Positions 22,662 to 29,123 are shown, counted from the first letter of the stretch. The stretch is 64,000 nucleotides of DNA from an uncultured Lachnospiraceae bacterium (GCA_947575805.1 CANPOY010000010.1:164-64163), one strand, 5' to 3'. Numbers and translations: made by a program. The notes: generated from the sequence alone by a model not told the origin.

Positions 22662-22840
22662 TTATTGTTGATGCTCAATAATCCATTGTAAAATTTCCTT
22701 TTCACCAATATCACCGGATGCCAATGCAAGAATGACATCGCTTAACTCCTTTTGGCTGTAGGACAATTCATATCCGTTTAATACAAGAAAAATTAACATA
22801 AATGGAGTTTTAGTACCTGTTCTTTGCTTAAAATAATCAT
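22662..22840 (-). pseudogene. doc: Fic/Doc toxin with the catalytic core deleted
   Basis: ATG 22840 overlaps the antitoxin stop: MIILSKEQVLKLH, then an out-of-frame jump to MLIFLVLNGYELSYSQKEL...; no HxFxDGNKR motif. Confidence 0.8.
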
Positions 22841-23079
22841 GTTGCAAGAACCTCATATGCTTCCGTATTCTGTTTTATTAACCGGTCAGATATTGCAAAG
22901 ATATCTTCATTACTGGCAATTTTTTCCTTTTCCGCTTTACTGAAATCAATGACCAAATATCTGGGTACATTATTTTTCAGAATAACCGCCGTTCCATGTT
23001 CGTCAACTACTTTGGCTACTTTTGAAAAATTTTGATTTGCTTCTGTAATTGAAATCATTGTGTTTGTATCTATTGTCAT
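22837..23079 (-). CDS. Phd/YefM-family antitoxin
   Basis: ISITEANQNFSKVAKVVDEHGTAVILKNNVPRY. Confidence 0.9.
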   Translation of the reverse strand: MTIDTNTMISITEANQNFSKVAKVVDEHGTAVILKNNVPRYLVIDFSKAEKEKIASNEDIFAISDRLIKQNTEAYEVLAT

Positions 23080-23434
23080 TCTATATGCACCTCACTTCCA
23101 CTTAAATTATATGTAAATTCTAGCTAGAAAACAACCTATTTTCCATTTTGATTGTCGTATAATTAAATTCTGCCCTTGTAAGTTACCCATAAGGACAAAA
23201 ACAAGGGAAAATACATATTGTAAAATTATTGGAAAATCAATATTTTCCTGATATAATGAAGTGGCTTGCATATGCGGCATTTGCTATAGTTACCGATTAT
23301 GCTCAGGAGGTATTAAGCATAGCCCTTTATGATGCATTTACCTCCCTGCCTGAATAATCTGCCGATTTTAGACTGTTCAGCGATAGTTTGTATTGCCGGA
23401 GGCGGCATTGCGGGAAAACAGGAGGGACAAGAAT

Positions 23435-23692
23435 ATGAGCGGTGAAAACGAATTGCTGGGAAACCTGGAAAAGCTGCATACTACGGAGCTGGACGTCGAG
23501 AGGATAATAAGAAACCTTTCCCTGGATGTTGAGGATGTGGCAGAATGGTGTCGGGAGCAGGTTAGCTCGGCCCGGGCGGATATTTCAAGAAAAGGGAAGA
23601 ACTGGTATGTCAGTGTGGATGGCTGTGTAATTACGGTAAACGCGTACAGCTATACCATTATAACAGCGCATAAGGAAAAGAAGAAACGTTGA
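23435..23692 (+). CDS. DUF3781-like small protein
   Basis: LHTTEL...RIIRNL...GKNWYV...ITVNAYSYTIITAHK; RBS ggaggg. Confidence 0.75.
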   Translation: MSGENELLGNLEKLHTTELDVERIIRNLSLDVEDVAEWCREQVSSARADISRKGKNWYVSVDGCVITVNAYSYTIITAHKEKKKR

Positions 23693-23737
23693 TCCGTTGG
23701 GAGTCAAGTCTATAGCTGACAGCATGGAAGGCCTGTA

Positions 23738-24355
23738 ATGAGCAGAGAGAAAAAGACAGGGAAACTCCGGATGATTGTCATAGCCGTTATTATTAGTGCC
23801 ACGTTGGCAATAATCGGACCCATGTGTTACGGGAAATATCAAATCAGCAAAATACCGGAGCTGTCCTTTGCGGAGGTTTTGGAATATACGACAAAGGATA
23901 ACGAGGATGCCTGCATTACTGTGGGGATTGTGAAGGGCGGGCAGGTTTCCTGGAGGGTATATGGAGAAAACGGGAAAGAGCTTCCGGCAGAAGGAAAGCT
24001 GTACCCGATCATTTTTGCCCAAAACAAGTTGGGACTGACTAATATAAAAATTTCTGAACAGGACGGTGACCTTGGAAATTACTGGGACAGGAAGTCAGAC
24101 GATGCGTATTTGGCGGCAGGCACCATTACATCCGATATAACGGATATGCTTTCCTACGCACAAATGCAGCTTTCGGATCATCCATATTTCACCGAATGTC
24201 ACAAGAGTCTGAAATCAATCAATGCGTCTACCAAAGACTATGAGACTATGGGCATCCATCTGGATGAGATCGGGATGGCGTGGATTATAGATGACAAAAG
24301 CGGTATAATATGGCATAATGGTGGTACGGGAAATTTAAAAACTATTACTCCATAG
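23738..24355 (+). pseudogene. Serine hydrolase (beta-lactamase-like) with an in-frame internal deletion and a truncated end
   Basis: N-terminal TM segment, ITVGIV...VYGENG, DAYLAAGTITSDITDML, WHNGGTG; no SxxK nucleophile motif. Confidence 0.65.
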
Positions 24356-24420
24356 CAAGTGCAGTGTGTCCAAAGGACGCTATGGGTAAATCTTAATAAC
24401 ATCATTTTGGAGGTTGGGGA

Positions 24421-24861
24421 ATGGTAATAAAGGCAGAACTCAAAGATATAAGCACTGTGGCAAGTCTGGCAGTGCAGATGTGGGAGGACAATACGGTAGA
24501 GGATCTGATTCAGGAGTTTACGGAAATTCTTTCCAAGGGTAACGCCCGGTTCTTTTTAAAATATGAAAATGACATTCCTGTAGGATTTTCGCAATGCCAG
24601 CTGCGCTCGGACTATGTGGAAGGAACGGAGACGACTCCTGTGGGTTACCTGGAAGGCATTTTTGTCAGGGAAGAATATCGGCATATGGGATATGCGAAAG
24701 AACTGCTGGCTGCATGCGAAGCATGGGCCAGGGATCAGGGCTGCCGGGAGTTTGCCAGCGACTGTGAGCTGGACAATACGGAAAGCTATCATTTTCATAT
24801 GGCCGTGGGATTTACGGAAGCAAACAGGATTATTTGTTTTACTAAAAAAATTCTCAAGTAA
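24421..24861 (+). CDS. aac(6'): Aminoglycoside 6'-N-acetyltransferase-like GNAT
   Basis: QLRSDYVEGT...PVGYLEGIFV...GCREFASDCELDN...FH.AVGFTE..RIICF, typical of the AAC(6')-I group. Confidence 0.75.
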   Translation: MVIKAELKDISTVASLAVQMWEDNTVEDLIQEFTEILSKGNARFFLKYENDIPVGFSQCQLRSDYVEGTETTPVGYLEGIFVREEYRHMGYAKELLAACEAWARDQGCREFASDCELDNTESYHFHMAVGFTEANRIICFTKKILK

Positions 24862-24935
24862 GTATTCTCTTAAAATTCATGGCTCTCTTTCTAAAGCGTC
24901 TATTCAAAGTTTTCCTGTGACAGTTGATTGGCTCG

Positions 24936-24986
24936 GCATAGCATATACATACCAGTTCAGCCTGAACTGGTATATATATGCTATGC
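24936..24986. repeat. Near-perfect 24-bp inverted repeat with a 3-nt loop
   Basis: GCATAGCATATACATACCAGTTCA-gcc-TGAACTGGTATATATATGCTATGC, one mismatch. Confidence 0.9.
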
Positions 24987-24998
24987 TGTTAAAACCAA

Positions 24999-25027
24999 TT
25001 GACAAAAGGACTGGGGGGGGGTAAAAT
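24999..25027 (+). promoter_or_regulatory. sigmaA promoter with a G9 homopolymer in the spacer
   Basis: TTGACA(24999)-aaaggactGGGGGGGGG-TAAAAT(25022); spacer exactly 17 nt. Confidence 0.75.
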
Positions 25028-25252
25028 GCGATAAGAAGCTGCGGACATTGGCTTTGGAGCAAAAAAAGGATAAACATGTTATTCAGGAGGCATACCGCCA
25101 TGAAATGTTTAAACCATCCCACGATCCGGAACCAACGCAAAATAATAAGCTGAATCAGAAAAAAATTCAGGAATTATGCAACCGGCTGTATTCTCTATTC
25201 GTTCTATGTGTGTAAGGACCAAACCCCGAACAGGACGAAAGGAGAGGAGAAA

Positions 25253-25378
25253 ATGTCGGATGGTTTTATCAGGCAAGTGATTCAGGCGGTTATCGAATCA
25301 TTCCCCATAGATCGGGCGAAAAAAACGGATATGTTACGGAGGATCACGGATCCTAAAAAGAAAAAGGGGGAGCAATAA
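25253..25378 (+). CDS. Unannotated 41-aa small protein
   Basis: RBS aaggagaggag; MSDGFIRQVIQAVIESFPIDRAKKTDMLRRITDPKKKKGEQ*; stops 3 nt before the next ATG. Confidence 0.55.
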   Translation: MSDGFIRQVIQAVIESFPIDRAKKTDMLRRITDPKKKKGEQ

Positions 25379-25381
25379 AAT

Positions 25382-27220
25382 ATGTATTGTACTTCTTGTG
25401 GAAAACAAATCGCGGACGATGCCGCATTTTGTCCGCATTGCGGAATGCCTGTATCATCGAGCGATGAACTGGCAGAGCTGGTGGCCGCGGCGCGCATCGG
25501 CGACCAGGACGCCATTGGCGCTTTGTATGAAAAGACTTACAGTAAGGTCTATTACACTGTCAAGTCCATAATCAAGGATGAGGATACGGTGTTTGACATC
25601 GTACAGGACACTTACATAAAAGCGTTCGCCCATCTGAACAGTTTCCAGGGTGACACGAAGTTTTTACCATGGATACGCCGCATTGCCGCCAATACGGCCA
25701 GGGACTGGCTGAAAAAGAAGCGTCCTATGCTGTTTACGGAGCTGAGCTCCGGCGACGAAAAGGATACTCCCGCAGAAGAGCTGTTTCCGGATGAGCGCAG
25801 CGAGAATCTGCCGGACCAGGTCATCGATCAGGAAGAGACAAAGCGCCTGATCCGCGAGATTATCGAGGAGTTGCCGGAGGATCAGCGTGCTGCTATCGGT
25901 ATGTTCTACTATGAGGAAATGTCAGTTAAAGAGATTGCCGCCGCAATGGGGGTCTCCGAGAGCGCAGTTAAGAGTCGGCTGATGTACGGGCGGAACAAAA
26001 TAGAAACGAAGGTCAGGGAACTGGAGAAGCAGGGCACGAAGCTCTACAGCCTGTCTCCTCTTCCGTTCCTGCTGCTGCTTTTCCGCAATCAGAAGGCATA
26101 TGCGGCCGAGGCACCGGACAGCCGGATTCTTCACGCTATCCTTGCTTCGCAGCCCATGGATGGAGCTGCAGCGGCCGGGGCCGCGCAGGGCGTCGGTACG
26201 GCAGGAGCAGGCACCGGGGCAGGGGCAAGTACCGGGGCGGCGGCTGGCAGCCTTGGTGCGCTGAAAATCGGACTGGTCACTCTTGTCGCCGCGGCAGTTG
26301 TAGGCCTTGGCATTTATGGCGGGATGCGGATCGCTTTCCGCTCTGGCGAGTCACAGAATTCTCAGACTATCGAGGGCGTCATTGACCAGAAAGAGTCGGA
26401 GGCATCTGTAGAGCCTTCTGCAGTAGAATCACAACCAACGGAAGAGGACACAAAGGATTCAACAATGGAGGCTTCCCAATCTACGGAAGAAGAGAGCTCG
26501 GAAGGGGAAGAAGAGAGCCTGGAAGCCGAGGACGAGGCAGTTTGTTCATACATTTTCTCGGATATGCCAATAGCGGCATTTGAGATAACGGGATTGGGAA
26601 TTGGTCCGGATGTGGCCGTTCTCGAGGAACCTATCGTTTTTGAGGATGGTTACAGTGAACTTATACCTCTTGTTCCGATGACGCCAGGCGAAAACACATT
26701 TGTACTGTACTGCTTTTCCGGAGGGAATGAGACTGATCAGGAGTACTATGGAATATCACGGGCCAAAATCCATTCCCCGTCGGGAAGCAGTCCCTGGGAA
26801 GCAAATTCATATACGGTTAATGAGATACCTGCTGAGAATGTCCCGGAGGGCTGGGCAGGTATAAGCAAACATCATGGAGAATTTAAGGAACAAGATGCCG
26901 GAAGTCATGAGACCGTGGGTGATGAATTTGTGATGAGCCTGGATGAGCCGGGTAACGGGGAGTTTAAGAGCATAGTTGACCCCTGGCTTCATTATATAAC
27001 ATTTGCGGAAATCTTCCATAGCGACGCACCCGAGCCCGATGCGATACATGTGGTAGAAGTATTAACATTTACGTACGGAGATGAATACAGCGTGGAAGAG
27101 AACGTGGTTTCAGAAGTGGCGGCAGCCTTTGAAGAGCGGGGAGCGACCGTTCGGGAGATTTCCGTGGAAGAGGCTCTTGCAAGGGATCAAATAACAGTAT
27201 CCGAGGAAAATGCGGACTAA
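25382..27220 (+). CDS. Zinc-ribbon / ECF sigma factor / transmembrane / extracellular-domain fusion protein
   Basis: CxxC-X10-CxxC N-terminus; sigma region 2 (DIVQDTYIKAF...WIRRIAANTARDWLKK); region 4 (LPEDQR...KEIAAAMGVSESAVKSRLMYGR); Ala/Gly linker, TM helix, acidic Ser/Glu/Thr linker, ~220-aa domain. Confidence 0.85.
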   Translation: MYCTSCGKQIADDAAFCPHCGMPVSSSDELAELVAAARIGDQDAIGALYEKTYSKVYYTVKSIIKDEDTVFDIVQDTYIKAFAHLNSFQGDTKFLPWIRRIAANTARDWLKKKRPMLFTELSSGDEKDTPAEELFPDERSENLPDQVIDQEETKRLIREIIEELPEDQRAAIGMFYYEEMSVKEIAAAMGVSESAVKSRLMYGRNKIETKVRELEKQGTKLYSLSPLPFLLLLFRNQKAYAAEAPDSRILHAILASQPMDGAAAAGAAQGVGTAGAGTGAGASTGAAAGSLGALKIGLVTLVAAAVVGLGIYGGMRIAFRSGESQNSQTIEGVIDQKESEASVEPSAVESQPTEEDTKDSTMEASQSTEEESSEGEEESLEAEDEAVCSYIFSDMPIAAFEITGLGIGPDVAVLEEPIVFEDGYSELIPLVPMTPGENTFVLYCFSGGNETDQEYYGISRAKIHSPSGSSPWEANSYTVNEIPAENVPEGWAGISKHHGEFKEQDAGSHETVGDEFVMSLDEPGNGEFKSIVDPWLHYITFAEIFHSDAPEPDAIHVVEVLTFTYGDEYSVEENVVSEVAAAFEERGATVREISVEEALARDQITVSEENAD

Positions 27221-27250
27221 GACGGAAAATGTGCAGTTATGGAGGAAAGT

Positions 27251-28192
27251 ATGAGAAATAAGAAAACGCTTCGATCAGGAATATTGATGGTAACAGTAAT
27301 GCTGTTTTTAAGTGGCTGTGGTAATCAGGCAGAGTCGGCAAGTGCAGAGTCGGCAAGTGCAGAGTCGGTGAAGACAGTACAAGAGGAAAGCATAGTGGAA
27401 AGTATGGAGAGTTCAGAAGTTGAAGACAATTCTGCGCCTGTTGAATCGGAAAAGCCGGATGTGACGGCTGAACCTACGCAGACGTCTGAGCCCGCTGAAA
27501 CTGTAGCGCCTGTTGAGACGGAAGAGCCCGTTGAGAAAGAAAAGCCTGCGGACACGAAGAAGCCCGTTGAGAAAGAAAAGCCTGCGGACACGAAGAAGCC
27601 CGTTGAGAAAGAAAAGCCTGCGGACACGAAGAAGTCCGTTGAGAAAGAAAAGCCTGCTGCTACAGACAAACCTGCAAAGCCCGCAGATAACCAGGCTGCC
27701 GATGCACCTTCCGAGCCGGCACAGCCCTCCGAACCTGTTCAGCCTTCCGAGTCAACACAGCCTTCTGTACCCGCAGAATCGGAAAGCAGTGGTTCAGAAC
27801 AGCCACATGAACATAATTGGGTAGCGCATACCACTCAGCGCTGGGTATCTCAAATCGTGACAGTAGTAGACGAGCCGGAACGATATGAGAAAGTAGGTGT
27901 GGCAGAAATATACTGGTATAATACAGGCACATGGGAGGTGACGAGAGACCCTGATCGTTTCACAGAATGGTGCTATGACGAGGTAGGCGGAGCATCCTGT
28001 CCCATGGCAGGATGGCATGAGGGCAATCCTTTGTTCTTAGGATATGACGAAAGCGGACATGCCCAATTTGCAGGAGATCATGTCCTCTATGATACTTATG
28101 ACTATATTCCGGCAGTTACCCACGAGGAGGATCAGGGATATTACGAAACATATGTGGACTACTACTACTGCGACTGCGGCGCAACCAAATAA
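27251..28192 (+). CDS. Lipoprotein with Pro/Lys/Glu tandem repeats and a Tyr/Trp-rich C-terminal domain
   Basis: RBS ggagg, lipobox LSGC, (EKEKPADTKKPV)n, C-terminal HEHNW...CDCGATK. Confidence 0.8.
   Translation: MRNKKTLRSGILMVTVMLFLSGCGNQAESASAESASAESVKTVQEESIVESMESSEVEDNSAPVESEKPDVTAEPTQTSEPAETVAPVETEEPVEKEKPADTKKPVEKEKPADTKKPVEKEKPADTKKSVEKEKPAATDKPAKPADNQAADAPSEPAQPSEPVQPSESTQPSVPAESESSGSEQPHEHNWVAHTTQRWVSQIVTVVDEPERYEKVGVAEIYWYNTGTWEVTRDPDRFTEWCYDEVGGASCPMAGWHEGNPLFLGYDESGHAQFAGDHVLYDTYDYIPAVTHEEDQGYYETYVDYYYCDCGATK
27330..27368 (+). repeat. 15-bp tandem repeat (AESAS)
   Basis: GCAGAGTCGGCAAGT x2.6. Confidence 0.85.
27527..27657 (+). repeat. 36-bp tandem repeat, about 3.6 copies
   Basis: CCCGTTGAGAAAGAAAAGCCTGCGGACACGAAGAAG identical at 27527, 27563 and 27599; partial copy at 27635. 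Confidence 0.95.
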
Positions 28193-28259
28193 CTTAGACG
28201 GAAGCCGTACTTTATTTTTTAGTACGAAAGCCCTTAAAAATAGGAAAAAGGAGAAACAA

Positions 28260-29123
28260 ATGAAAGCAAAACCAATTACAACACTTTTACTGGCACTGGC
28301 CCTGGTGCTTCCCCTCTCCGCCTGCGGCGGAAACAGAGATGACGTACATACCCGTATTGAGGGAGACACGCTCTACCTCTCCGGCAGAGGAACCGTAAAT
28401 CACGAAGATTTCGGCGATTTTAGTCCGGATAATGTAGTGGTTGAGAAAGGAATTACCGGGATTGGTGAAGGAGCATTCCATATGTGCGGAAACATGACCG
28501 AAATTAGTCTGCCTGAAGGTGTGAAGAGCATCGGCGATGGTGCGTTCAGTGCGTGCAGCAGTCTGAAAACGGTCACTCTGCCGGAGAGCGTGAAGAGCAT
28601 CGGCGAGGGTGCATTCCGCGAATGCAGCGGTCTGCTTCTTATCAGCCTGCCCGAAAGTGTGGAGAGTATCGGCCAGGCTGCATTCTACAGGTGCAGCAGC
28701 CTGATGTCTATCACCTTGCCGGAGGGCCTGAAGAGCATCGGCGACGCTGCATTCAACGGATGCAGCAGTCTGACAGCCATTACCCTGCCGGAGGGCGTGA
28801 AAAGCATTGGCGAATATGCGTTCCTGGAATGCAGCAGCCTCACCTCTATCACCTTGCCCGAAGGCGTGGAGAGTATTGGCGCTGGTGCGTTCTATGGATG
28901 CAGCAGCCTGAGAAGTATCACTCTGCCTGACAGCGTGGAGAGTATCGGCGCTGAGGCATTCACATTGTGTGAAAGCCTGACAGAGGTGACACTGGGCACC
29001 GGCTTGACGGAATTTCCCAGCTTTGACGGCGCCTATGCGCTTACACGGATCAAAGCCCCCAGCAGCCTGCAGGAATCGGCCATAAAGTCCGGGATAGATC
29101 TGTCCCTGATTGAATGGTATTAA
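28260..29123 (+). CDS. BspA-type leucine-rich-repeat lipoprotein (LRR_5)
   Basis: RBS aaggag, lipobox LSAC, about seven 23-aa repeats LxxIxLPEGVKSIGxxAFxxCSS. Confidence 0.9.
   Translation: MKAKPITTLLLALALVLPLSACGGNRDDVHTRIEGDTLYLSGRGTVNHEDFGDFSPDNVVVEKGITGIGEGAFHMCGNMTEISLPEGVKSIGDGAFSACSSLKTVTLPESVKSIGEGAFRECSGLLLISLPESVESIGQAAFYRCSSLMSITLPEGLKSIGDAAFNGCSSLTAITLPEGVKSIGEYAFLECSSLTSITLPEGVESIGAGAFYGCSSLRSITLPDSVESIGAEAFTLCESLTEVTLGTGLTEFPSFDGAYALTRIKAPSSLQESAIKSGIDLSLIEWY

What the first reader, a model, noticed from the sequence alone, without database searches (positions are those of the whole stretch)
24999..25027. G9 homopolymer that sets a 17-bp sigmaA promoter spacer
TTGACA-aaaggactGGGGGGGGG-TAAAAT has a perfect -35, a near-perfect -10 and an exact 17-nt spacer, 9 nt of which are a G run. 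It is the only G run of this length I noticed in the window. One slipped base would give a 16- or 18-nt spacer, the classic mechanism for tuning a promoter. Alternative reading: with 8 or 11 G, TTG at 24999 would be in frame with an open stretch ending at TAA ~25215, but no RBS supports this.
Basis: partly seen in the sequence, partly recalled or inferred. Interest (0 to 1): 0.78.

Follow-up and report, generated by a model that had tools for sequence, protein, structure and literature searches.

The report
Slippery poly-G promoter beside a deleted gene
A near-perfect housekeeping-type promoter in a mouse-gut Lachnospiraceae genome has a run of G's in its spacer whose length differs between samples and related species, as in known phase-variable promoters; here the gene it originally drove is deleted down to 17 codons, so at most it reads on into a neighbouring ECF sigma-factor operon.

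Summary
TTGACA (24999-25004), a 17-nt spacer ending in G9 (25013-25021) and TAAAAT (25022-25027) are present, and G9 is the only G/C run longer than 7 in the 64 kb.

G9 is the minority allele. Assemblies of 16 public runs carry G8 (16-nt spacer) and 3 carry G9. Both lengths occur on two different SNP haplotypes, within the same studies, so slippage recurs and G9 is not a long-read artefact.

The same promoter sits upstream of an orthologous gene in five other Lachnospiraceae lineages:
- G7/G8
- G7
- G8
- G10
- G9/G10/G11

More distant orthologues have an ordinary TTGACA-N17/18-TATAAT promoter at the same place.

That gene encodes a roughly 175-aa B-box-like zinc-finger membrane protein. In this window, and in the sister species, a clean in-frame 468-nt deletion leaves a 17-codon relic (25100-25153).

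Downstream lie a conserved ECF-type promoter (25177-25206), a 41-aa ORF and a zinc-ribbon ECF sigma gene.

So the promoter and its slippage are supported. No transcription start or expression effect could be tested. It is a new member of a known kind (porA-type spacer phase variation), and its native target has decayed in this genome.

The parts
24999..25004 (+). -35 hexamer TTGACA
   Evidence: Identical in L001, L002, L003 and L138; TTGACT in the L005 lineage.
25005..25021 (+). Promoter spacer: aaaggact plus the poly-G tract. It is 17 nt in this assembly and 16 nt in most others.
25013..25021 (+). Poly-G tract, G9 here. G8 in 16 runs and G9 in 3 runs.
25022..25027 (+). -10 hexamer TAAAAT (TATAAT in sister species L001)
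25033..25035 (+). Predicted transcription start (A/A/G, 6-8 nt after the -10). Inferred, not observed.
   Evidence: Inference from sigma70-type promoter geometry. No informative RNA data.
25085..25090 (+). AGGAGG ribosome-binding site of the relic ORF (decayed to GGCAGG in L001)
25100..25153 (+). 17-codon relic (MKCLNHP|TIRNQRKIIS*) of a roughly 175-aa B-box-like zinc-finger membrane protein gene. The junction of the 468-nt in-frame deletion lies between 25120 and 25121.
   Evidence: Alignment with the intact L002 gene. Intact orthologues.
25177..25206 (+). ECF-type promoter TGCAACC-N15-TCGTTCTA (N16 to the CGTT core), presumably autoregulated
   Evidence: Motif at about -205 from the sigma start in 16 of 27 homologous loci, with a non-conserved spacer. 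Also follows the B-box gene in L041, L042, L052 and L054, and precedes the sigma operon in L053.
25253..25378 (+). 41-aa ORF with a strong RBS, the conserved first gene of the sigma operon
25382..27220 (+). 612-aa protein: N-terminal zinc ribbon, ECF sigma-70 regions 2 and 4, then a hydrophobic (predicted transmembrane) segment and a C-terminal domain
   Evidence: Pfam and NCBIfam.
24936..24986 (.). 51-nt palindrome (25-nt arms) downstream of aac(6'), probably its terminator and an insulator. With its outer stem it folds at -45 kcal/mol.
   Evidence: Kept with compensatory changes in L001.

Best explanation
The site is a genuine sigmaA-type promoter. Its spacer ends in a poly-G tract that gains and loses single G's by slipped-strand mispairing, so the -35/-10 distance switches between 16 nt (G8, the usual allele) and 17 nt (G9, this assembly).

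It is the ancestral promoter of a roughly 175-aa B-box-like zinc-finger membrane protein gene. That gene lies directly upstream of, and in the same direction as, an ECF sigma operon: P_ECF, a 41-aa ORF, then the zinc-ribbon ECF sigma gene.

The poly-G spacer design is kept in at least six Lachnospiraceae lineages with tract lengths of 7 to 11. This is the genotype signature of a phase-variable 'volume control' promoter of the Neisseria porA type.

In this window's species and its sister species, a 468-nt in-frame deletion has reduced the target gene to a 17-codon relic. Here the promoter can only make a short leader that reads through the ECF promoter into the sigma operon, since no terminator lies between. 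Tract length would then set the basal, sigmaA-driven input to a sigma factor presumed to activate its own promoter.

Shown: the sequence anatomy, the tract polymorphism and its recurrence on separate haplotypes, conservation across lineages, the deletion, and conservation of the ECF motif.

Inferred: promoter activity, the transcription start, the effect of 16 versus 17 nt, read-through, and any adaptive role.
For: Anatomy.

The promoter class is real in this genome: 9 sites matching at least 11 of 12 positions against 1.05 expected, nearly all just upstream of ORFs.

Tract census from per-sample assemblies:
- G8 in X1-4, X6-13, X16, X17, X19 and X24; G9 in X5, X14 and X33.
- G9-specific 31-mers are held only by X5, X14 and X33.
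- G8 and G9 both occur on haplotype A (X4 and X6 versus X5, all in study P3) and on haplotype B (X7 versus X14 in study P4; X8 versus X33 in study P3).
- Internal control: the nearby A7 tracts never vary, except an A6 at 25061 that is strictly linked to haplotype B.

Sister species: G7 in L001, X28 and X29; G8 in X26 and X27.

Same design upstream of the intact orthologous gene:
- L002 lineage: G7 in four contigs.
- L138: G8.
- L003: G10.
- L005 lineage: G9 (L005), G10 (L129, L131, L140) and G11 (L053, L130), with near-identical flanks.

Other orthologues carry canonical TTGACA/T-N17/18-TATAAT at the same position.

The deletion relic has identical breakpoints in the window and L001.

The gene order sigmaA-type promoter (poly-G in L002, ordinary in L052; none evident in L054), B-box gene, P_ECF, small ORF, sigma is seen in L002, L052 and L054.

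The ECF motif is conserved in 16 of 27 loci.

No + strand terminator-like site lies between 25028 and 25253, and the leader has no significant structure (z = -0.7).

precedent: in porA, 11G, 10G and 9G between -35 and -10 give graded expression (PMC3639595).
Against: - No transcription start or expression data exist. The runs labelled RNA cover the intergenic and coding regions evenly and look like DNA.
- Only per-sample majority alleles from contigs were available. Heterogeneity within a sample or culture, and switching rates, were not measured.
- Both 16 and 17 nt are normal spacers here; 5 of the 9 best promoter-like sites use 16 nt. The G8/G9 effect may therefore be small.
- Several lineages sit at spacers that should be poor: 15 nt in all four L002 contigs, and 19-20 nt in the L003 and L005 lineages. 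Either low or off states predominate, or the simple spacer model is incomplete.
- The native target gene is gone in this genome, so the element may be a decaying leftover.
- Conservation of the hexamers between the window and L001 (1 change in 12 positions at 12.5% background divergence) is not statistically distinguishable from neutrality.
Confidence: 0.6

Rival explanations
1. The promoter is real and the tract is mutable, but the variation is neutral noise. The G tract is simply an unstable homopolymer in a promoter that works about equally well at 16 and 17 nt. In this genome the promoter is a functionless leftover of a deleted gene, and the sigma operon depends only on its own ECF promoter.
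For: - The target gene is reduced to a relic, and the relic's RBS is already decaying in L001.
- 16-nt spacers are common among strong sites.
- G8 predominates in 16 of 19 runs.
- Most sigma homologues have only the ECF promoter and no strong sigmaA site upstream.
- Hexamer conservation is not significant.
Against: - An uninterrupted G tract is retained in six lineages whose other spacer bases differ completely. A neutral tract should often be interrupted or lost.
- Both hexamers are intact in every haplotype and in L001, long after the shared deletion.
- G9 reached majority in three samples on two haplotype backgrounds.
Confidence: 0.3
2. It is not a promoter. The site is a chance consensus match in an intergenic region, and the G run has some other role (for example a protein-binding or structural element) or none.
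For: There is no transcription start evidence. The distance to the next intact gene is unusually long at 225 nt. In related lineages the spacers range from 15 to 20 nt, many of them outside the sigma70 optimum.
Against: - Sites matching at least 11 of 12 positions are 9-fold enriched and lie in front of genes.
- The long distance is explained by the 468-nt deletion. The site lies 73-101 nt upstream of the relic's ATG, the same position as canonical TTGACA-N17/18-TATAAT promoters of intact orthologues.
- Both hexamers are conserved across six lineages while the sequence between them diverges.
Confidence: 0.07
3. G9 is an assembly or sequencing artefact and the tract is really fixed at G8.
For: Sixteen of 19 runs and seven other contigs have G8. 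X3, which is identical to the window elsewhere in the region, has G8. Homopolymers are error-prone in long-read assemblies.
Against: G9 contigs at depth 7-13 occur in three independent runs from two studies, and G9-specific 31-mers are indexed there. Sequencing errors affecting a small minority of reads, as I would expect at an 8-9-nt run, could not dominate a contig. Length also varies in two other lineages.
Confidence: 0.03
4. It is a coding-region frameshift switch. With G8 the TTG at 24999 opens a 71-codon frame ending at 25215, so the tract would turn a small protein on and off.
For: With G8 the frame is open in haplotypes A, C and D.
Against: - There is no RBS, and the start codon would be the -35 hexamer itself.
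- The frame is broken by the A6 allele in haplotype B and stops after 14 codons in L001.
- Three single-base indels separate the window from L001 in this stretch.
- There is no Pfam hit.
- The stretch is homologous to the 5' UTR, start and end of the B-box gene of L002, read in another frame.
Confidence: 0.01

Closest known systems
Neisseria meningitidis porA (and opc) promoter: a poly-G/poly-C tract between -35 and -10
   Same: A homopolymeric G tract forms the 3' part of the spacer of a sigma70-type promoter. Single-base slippage changes the spacer length. Natural populations carry several lengths. In porA, 11G, 10G and 9G give graded expression (PMC3639595).
   Different: - The host is a Gram-positive gut commensal (Lachnospiraceae), not a pathogen.
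- Tracts are shorter here (7-9; 9-11 in one related lineage).
- The ancestral target is a small zinc-finger membrane protein next to an ECF sigma operon, not a major surface antigen.
- In this genome the target is deleted.
- No expression data exist.
Treponema pallidum subfamily II tpr genes and tprL: poly-G tracts upstream that modulate transcription
   Same: Variable-length poly-G tracts sit in promoter regions and vary between and within strains (a paper on TprL turned up, PMC7864442; the details are from my own knowledge of Giacani et al.).
   Different: In T. pallidum the tracts lie around or upstream of the start site rather than filling a canonical -35/-10 spacer, and the organism is a spirochaete pathogen.
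Bacillus subtilis sigM and sigX operons: dual sigmaA plus autoregulated ECF promoters
   Same: An upstream sigmaA-type promoter and a downstream ECF-type promoter (TGCAAC...CGT) face the same ECF sigma operon. The general architecture is from my own knowledge; the motif was tested.
   Different: Here the upstream promoter originally belonged to a separate gene and reaches the sigma operon only by read-through. It carries a mutable tract. The sigma is fused to a zinc ribbon and to a membrane-spanning C-terminal domain.
Invertible promoters (invertons) of gut Bacteroides and Clostridia
   Same: Heritable, reversible, stochastic promoter switching in gut commensals.
   Different: The mechanism is entirely different: site-specific inversion, not repeat slippage. 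No inverted repeats flank this promoter in an inverton-like way. The nearby palindrome is a hairpin upstream of it.

Membership tests
Phase-variable promoter with a simple-sequence repeat in the spacer (porA/opc type) | A homopolymeric tract lies between recognisable -35 and -10 hexamers | tested here: met
   TTGACA, 8 nt plus G9, TAAAAT.
Phase-variable promoter with a simple-sequence repeat in the spacer (porA/opc type) | Tract length varies among cells or populations of the same strain, recurrently and reversibly | tested here: met
   Met at the level of per-sample majority alleles. G8 and G9 occur on two identical-haplotype backgrounds within the same studies. The neighbouring A7 tracts are stable. 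Within-culture frequency was not measurable because no raw reads were available.
Phase-variable promoter with a simple-sequence repeat in the spacer (porA/opc type) | The tract is retained, at differing lengths, in related strains or species | tested here: met
   Six lineages with G7 to G11. The L005 lineage has G9, G10 and G11 with near-identical flanks.
Phase-variable promoter with a simple-sequence repeat in the spacer (porA/opc type) | Tract length changes transcription of the downstream gene | not testable with these tools
   This needs reporter fusions or RT-qPCR of G8 and G9 clones.
Phase-variable promoter with a simple-sequence repeat in the spacer (porA/opc type) | A functional gene is under its control | tested here: inconclusive
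   The native gene is a 17-codon relic in this window. Read-through into the ECF sigma operon is possible, since no terminator was found, but it was not shown. The gene is intact in the L002, L003, L138 and L005 lineages.
SigmaA (sigma70 housekeeping) promoter | Near-consensus hexamers at 16-18 nt spacing, more often than chance | tested here: met
   The site matches 11 of 12 positions. The window has 9 such sites against 1.05 expected.
SigmaA (sigma70 housekeeping) promoter | Positional homology with promoters of orthologous genes | tested here: met
   Canonical TTGACA/T-N17/18-TATAAT lies 60-95 nt upstream of the B-box gene ATG in L048/49, L052, L055, L056, L119-128 and L142-144.
SigmaA (sigma70 housekeeping) promoter | A mapped transcription start 5-9 nt downstream of the -10 | tested here: inconclusive
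   The available 'RNA?' runs are Logan contigs with flat coverage over genes and spacers. Their contig ends are not interpretable as transcript 5' ends.
Autoregulated ECF sigma promoter | A conserved AAC-type -35 and CGT-type -10 at fixed spacing, with a variable spacer, upstream of the sigma operon in homologues | tested here: met
   TGCAACC-N15-TCGTTCTA (N16 to the CGTT core) lies at about -205 in 16 of 27 loci. It is also present in L041, L042, L052, L053 and L054.
Coding-region SSR frameshift switch | The tract lies inside a conserved, translatable ORF | tested here: not met
   There is no RBS, and the frame is not conserved across haplotypes or in the sister species.

The most novel reading that the evidence does not exclude
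A clade of mouse-gut Lachnospiraceae maintains a true contingency locus. Stochastic poly-G slippage in the promoter of a B-box zinc-finger membrane protein, a candidate partner or anti-sigma of the adjacent membrane-tethered zinc-ribbon ECF sigma, would gate that sigma's regulon, which may include the neighbouring lipoprotein and BspA-type LRR surface protein genes. This would create heritable cell-surface heterogeneity in the gut. In the window's species, deletion of the membrane protein gene would have re-wired the same switch to feed the self-activating sigma operon directly, turning a graded promoter into a bistable on/off device.
Probability: 0.15. Interest if true: 0.72.

Novelty: new member of a known kind. 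Interest (0 to 1): 0.52.

Why it matters
Phase variation through simple-sequence repeats is documented mainly in host-adapted pathogens such as Neisseria, Haemophilus, Campylobacter, Helicobacter, Treponema and Mycoplasma. For gut commensals, invertible promoters dominate the discussion. A full-text search for homopolymeric, phase variation, Lachnospiraceae and promoter together returned no paper.

The finding gives a simple, testable example in abundant gut Firmicutes: a poly-G spacer promoter conserved across several species, polymorphic in public metagenomes, and attached to an uncharacterised zinc-finger membrane protein and ECF sigma module. Tract length can be read straight from metagenomic reads, so the state of the switch could be followed in vivo.

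There is also a practical point. The G9 in this assembly differs from the G8 in most short-read assemblies, and this difference is biological polymorphism rather than an assembly error.

For this particular genome the importance is limited, because the switch's native gene is gone.

Tried and rejected
- **Exact-pattern scans.** Scans for the promoter with a variable gap in genome contigs and metagenome contigs found nothing.
- **Rfam scan of 23500-26500.** The only hit was a sub-threshold chance match of the palindrome to mir-590.
- **RNA evidence.** At first, contig ends at 25210 and 25214 in X26 and X28 looked like an ECF-promoter start. Laying the same runs on L001 showed flat coverage across genes and spacers, with overlapping contigs at the break. 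I withdrew this as start-site evidence. The runs X15-17 and X24, labelled 'TRANSCRIPTOMIC WGA', also behave like DNA.
- **The -35 as the outer end of the long palindrome.** Rejected. In L001 a 75-nt insertion separates the palindrome from the promoter, and only the 51-nt core is conserved.
- **Long-range pairing of 25106-25122 with the start of the 41-aa ORF.** Not pursued. The pairing is short, the leader fold is not better than shuffled sequence, and the segment is a deletion relic.
- **The coding reading of the TTG frame.** Rejected.
- **Identity of the B-box protein.** Sequence searches of Pfam, NCBIfam and PDB gave only sub-threshold zf-B_box and DUF6040 hits. Its role as an anti-sigma factor remains a guess.
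- **L019's G6 run.** It lies inside a coding region and is unrelated.

Full report
**1. The observation**

Positions 24999-25027 read TTGACA-aaaggact-GGGGGGGGG-TAAAAT. The simple promoter scan ranks it best in 23000-28000, with 11 of 12 matches and a 17-nt spacer.

The G9 at 25013-25021 is the only G or C run longer than 7 in the 64 kb. Counts of G runs of length 3 to 9 are 680, 166, 42, 5, 1, 0 and 1, and no C run exceeds 5.

Sites matching at least 11 of 12 consensus positions with a 16-18 nt spacer number nine in the window, all on the + strand. First-order Markov simulations give 1.05. Seven of the other eight lie 43-103 nt upstream of a + strand ORF. The organism therefore uses canonical sigmaA promoters, and a site of this quality is likely to be real. 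Five of the nine have 16-nt spacers.

**2. The surroundings**

- Upstream is an AAC(6')-type aminoglycoside acetyltransferase gene at 24421-24861 (NCBIfam NF043067, 200.6 bits against a cutoff of 140).
- It is followed by a 51-nt palindrome at 24936-24986. With its outer stem this folds at -45 kcal/mol, z = -10. It is kept with compensatory changes in the sister species and is probably the terminator of that gene.
- Downstream of the promoter lie about 225 nt without an intact gene, then a 41-aa ORF (25253-25378).
- Next is a 612-aa protein (25382-27220) with an N-terminal zinc ribbon, ECF sigma regions 2 and 4, and a hydrophobic segment followed by a C-terminal domain.
- In front of the 41-aa ORF, at 25177-25206, is TGCAACC-N15-TCGTTCTA (16 nt to the CGTT core). 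The same motif, with a non-conserved spacer, lies at about -205 from the sigma start in 16 of 27 homologous loci from many Lachnospiraceae and Oscillospiraceae. This is the expected picture of an autoregulated ECF promoter.

The best relatives in GTDB are uncultured Acetatifactor and Lachnospiraceae MAGs from mouse gut. All runs that hold the sequence are mouse-gut metagenomes.

**3. Does the tract vary?**

Only Logan or ENA contigs were available, which give per-sample majority sequences. No raw reads were available.

Over 24700-25500 I distinguished five SNP haplotypes:

| Haplotype | Defining differences from the window | G8 | G9 |
|---|---|---|---|
| A | none | X1, X2, X3, X4, X6, X9, X13 | X5, and the window itself |
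| B | 24741T, 24974G, 25098T, 25099T, 25174A, and A7 to A6 at 25061 | X7, X8 | X14, X33 |
| C | see calls listed below | X10, X12, X19 | none |
| D | see calls listed below | X11 | none |
| E | see calls listed below | X16, X17, X24 | none |

- A search with a 61-nt query centred on the tract found the G9-specific words only in X5, X14 and X33.
- G8, giving a 16-nt spacer, is therefore the common state.
- G9 is a real minority allele. It appears on two different backgrounds and within the same studies: in P3, X4, X6 and X8 versus X5 and X33; in P4, X7 versus X14.
- That is recurrent change at this tract, not one inherited event and not a long-read artefact.
- As an internal control, three A7 tracts in the same 800 nt never vary, and the A6 at 25061 is strictly linked to haplotype B.

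**4. The sister species (L001)**

L001 has 88% sigma amino-acid identity and 87.5% identity in this intergenic region. It has the same gene order and carries TTGACA-aatggatt-G7-TATAAT, a 15-nt spacer. Runs X26 and X27 of that species have G8, while X28 and X29 have G7.

**5. The turning point**

I scanned the 266 kb of fetched homologous loci for G/C runs of 7 or more. The same design appeared elsewhere:

- L002: TTGACA-aaaggaat-G7-TAAAATGCGATAAGA
- L003: TTGACA-aaataaaggc-G10-TAAAATGC
- L005: TTGACT-ttttttc-G9-tg-TAAAAT

In each case a gene starts 70-95 nt downstream. It encodes a roughly 175-aa protein beginning MKCFNHPEREAVATCQKCGKGLC... It has a cysteine/histidine-rich B-box-like N-terminus (Pfam zf-B_box, below cutoff) and hydrophobic segments.

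The family has at least 178 clusters at 90% identity. Almost none are named, and there is no relative of solved structure by sequence.

The window's short ORF at 25100-25153 (MKCLNHP|TIRNQRKIIS*, with an AGGAGG RBS at 25085-25090) is the remnant of this gene. Alignment with L002 shows one clean 468-nt gap (156 codons, in frame). It has the same breakpoints in the window and in L001, and the junction in the window lies between 25120 and 25121. The relic is decaying: it has a 1-nt deletion near its end, and its RBS is lost in L001.

The ancestral order was sigmaA-type promoter, B-box gene, P_ECF, small ORF, sigma. It is seen intact in L002, L052 and L054, though in L054 no upstream promoter is evident.

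**6. A wider census**

I fetched contigs encoding members of the protein family.

Lineages with a poly-G spacer:

| Lineage | Tract | Spacer |
|---|---|---|
| Window species | G8/G9 | 16/17 nt |
| L001 species | G7/G8 | 15/16 nt |
| L002 lineage | G7 in four contigs | 15 nt |
| L138 | G8 | 16 nt |
| L003 | G10 | 20 nt |
| L005 lineage | G9 (L005); G10 (L129, L131, L140); G11 (L053, L130) | 18-20 nt |

L129 and L130 have neighbouring accession numbers, apparently from the same submission, and have identical flanks.

Other orthologues have an ordinary TTGACA/T-N17/18-TATAAT at the same position and no tract: L048/49, L052, L055, L056, L119-128 and L142-144. Others show no obvious promoter.

Two conclusions follow:
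- The site is a promoter by positional homology.
- An uninterrupted G tract is retained while the rest of the spacer diverges completely, and its length is polymorphic in all three lineages that were sampled more than a few times. This is the genotype signature of a repeat-mediated phase-variable promoter.

**7. Mechanism**

Slipped-strand mispairing at the G tract changes the -35/-10 distance by one base pair, and so changes their rotational phasing, per event.

In Neisseria porA the same arrangement gives graded expression. The 11G allele is high, 10G is about 2-fold lower and 9G about 6-13-fold lower at the cell surface (PMC3639595).

By analogy, G9 (17 nt) should be the strongest state here and G8 (16 nt) somewhat weaker. 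This is inference.

The native gene is deleted, so the transcript would consist of a leader of about 219 nt that runs through the ECF promoter into the 41-aa ORF and the sigma gene. No terminator-like site lies on the + strand in between, and the leader has no significant structure. If the sigma factor activates its own promoter, small changes in basal input could be amplified. This also is inference.

**8. What could not be shown**

- I could not obtain a transcription start.
- Runs flagged 'RNA?' gave contigs of uniform depth over genes and spacers.
- An apparent 5' end at 25210-25214 dissolved when the same runs were laid on L001.
- Within-sample heterogeneity, switching rate and any expression effect remain untested.
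- Several lineages sit at spacers that should be weak (15, 19 or 20 nt). This fits 'mostly low or off' phase variation, but it also warns that the simple spacer model may be incomplete.

**9. Alternatives**

- Neutral leftover promoter: 0.30.
- Not a promoter: 0.07.
- Artefactual G9: 0.03.
- Coding frameshift switch: 0.01. This is rejected because the TTG frame has no RBS, is broken in haplotype B and in L001, and is homologous to the UTR and ends of the B-box gene read in another frame.

**10. Verdict**

Three corrections apply:
- G8 with a 16-nt spacer is the usual state.
- The element is the conserved promoter of a gene that has been deleted in this genome.
- The sigma operon downstream has its own ECF promoter.

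It is a new member of a known kind. It is of moderate interest as an example of repeat-mediated phase variation in gut Lachnospiraceae, and of limited functional weight in this particular genome.

Noticed in passing
window 25100-25153: A 17-codon ORF with a strong RBS is the in-frame deletion relic (468 nt lost) of a roughly 175-aa B-box-like zinc-finger membrane protein gene that is intact in related species. The window and sister species L001 share the same breakpoints.
   Followed up: yes
window 25177-25206: An ECF-type promoter, TGCAACC-N15-TCGTTCTA (N16 to the CGTT core), lies in front of the 41-aa ORF and sigma operon. It is conserved at about -205 in 16 of 27 homologous loci, with a variable spacer.
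   Followed up: yes
window 24421-24861: The gene upstream scores above the NCBIfam cutoff for aminoglycoside 6'-N-acetyltransferase, AAC(6') group E (200.6 bits against 140). It keeps the same neighbours in L001 and L002.
   Followed up: partly
window 24936-24986 (outer stem 24923-25003): A 51-nt near-perfect palindrome folds at -45 kcal/mol (z = -10) and has no U tract. It is conserved with compensatory substitutions in L001. Logan contigs often break here. It is probably the aac(6') terminator.
   Followed up: partly
window 23738-24355: This 205-aa ORF is an internally deleted and C-terminally truncated remnant of a 381-aa beta-lactamase-family serine hydrolase (L002:492-1637, PF00144). Residues of about 109-232, which contain an SLTK sequence (a candidate SxxK motif), are missing. 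It is the second gene in this neighbourhood decayed by deletion.
   Followed up: partly
window 27329 (inside ORF 27239-28192): Runs X15-17 and X24 have a 15-nt deletion in the repeat-rich N-terminal part of a putative lipoprotein (SAESA repeats). This is copy-number variation of a short tandem repeat in a predicted surface protein directly downstream of the sigma gene. Related species show a 12-nt indel at L001:4841.
   Followed up: no
L001 3361-3440: A short segment between aac(6') and the palindrome in the sister species has contig depth of 150-1000x against 5-40x for its flanks, and many different neighbours. It is a multi-copy small repeat element (MITE/REP-like) and is absent from the window at this position.
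   Followed up: no
window 22662-23079 (- strand) and 23393-23692: A Phd/YefM-like antitoxin ORF (weak Pfam hit) with an overlapping small ORF downstream may form a toxin-antitoxin pair. A DUF3781 gene is also present.
   Followed up: no
window, whole: All nine near-consensus sigmaA promoter-like sites (at least 11 of 12 matches) are on the + strand, and G exceeds C by 27% on this strand. This is consistent with a leading-strand window with co-oriented genes.
   Followed up: no
window 28044-29123: A BspA-type leucine-rich-repeat protein gene (PF13306, E = 5e-65) lies just downstream of the sigma operon and the lipoprotein gene. It may belong to the sigma factor's regulon, but no ECF motif was found in front of it.
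   Followed up: partly
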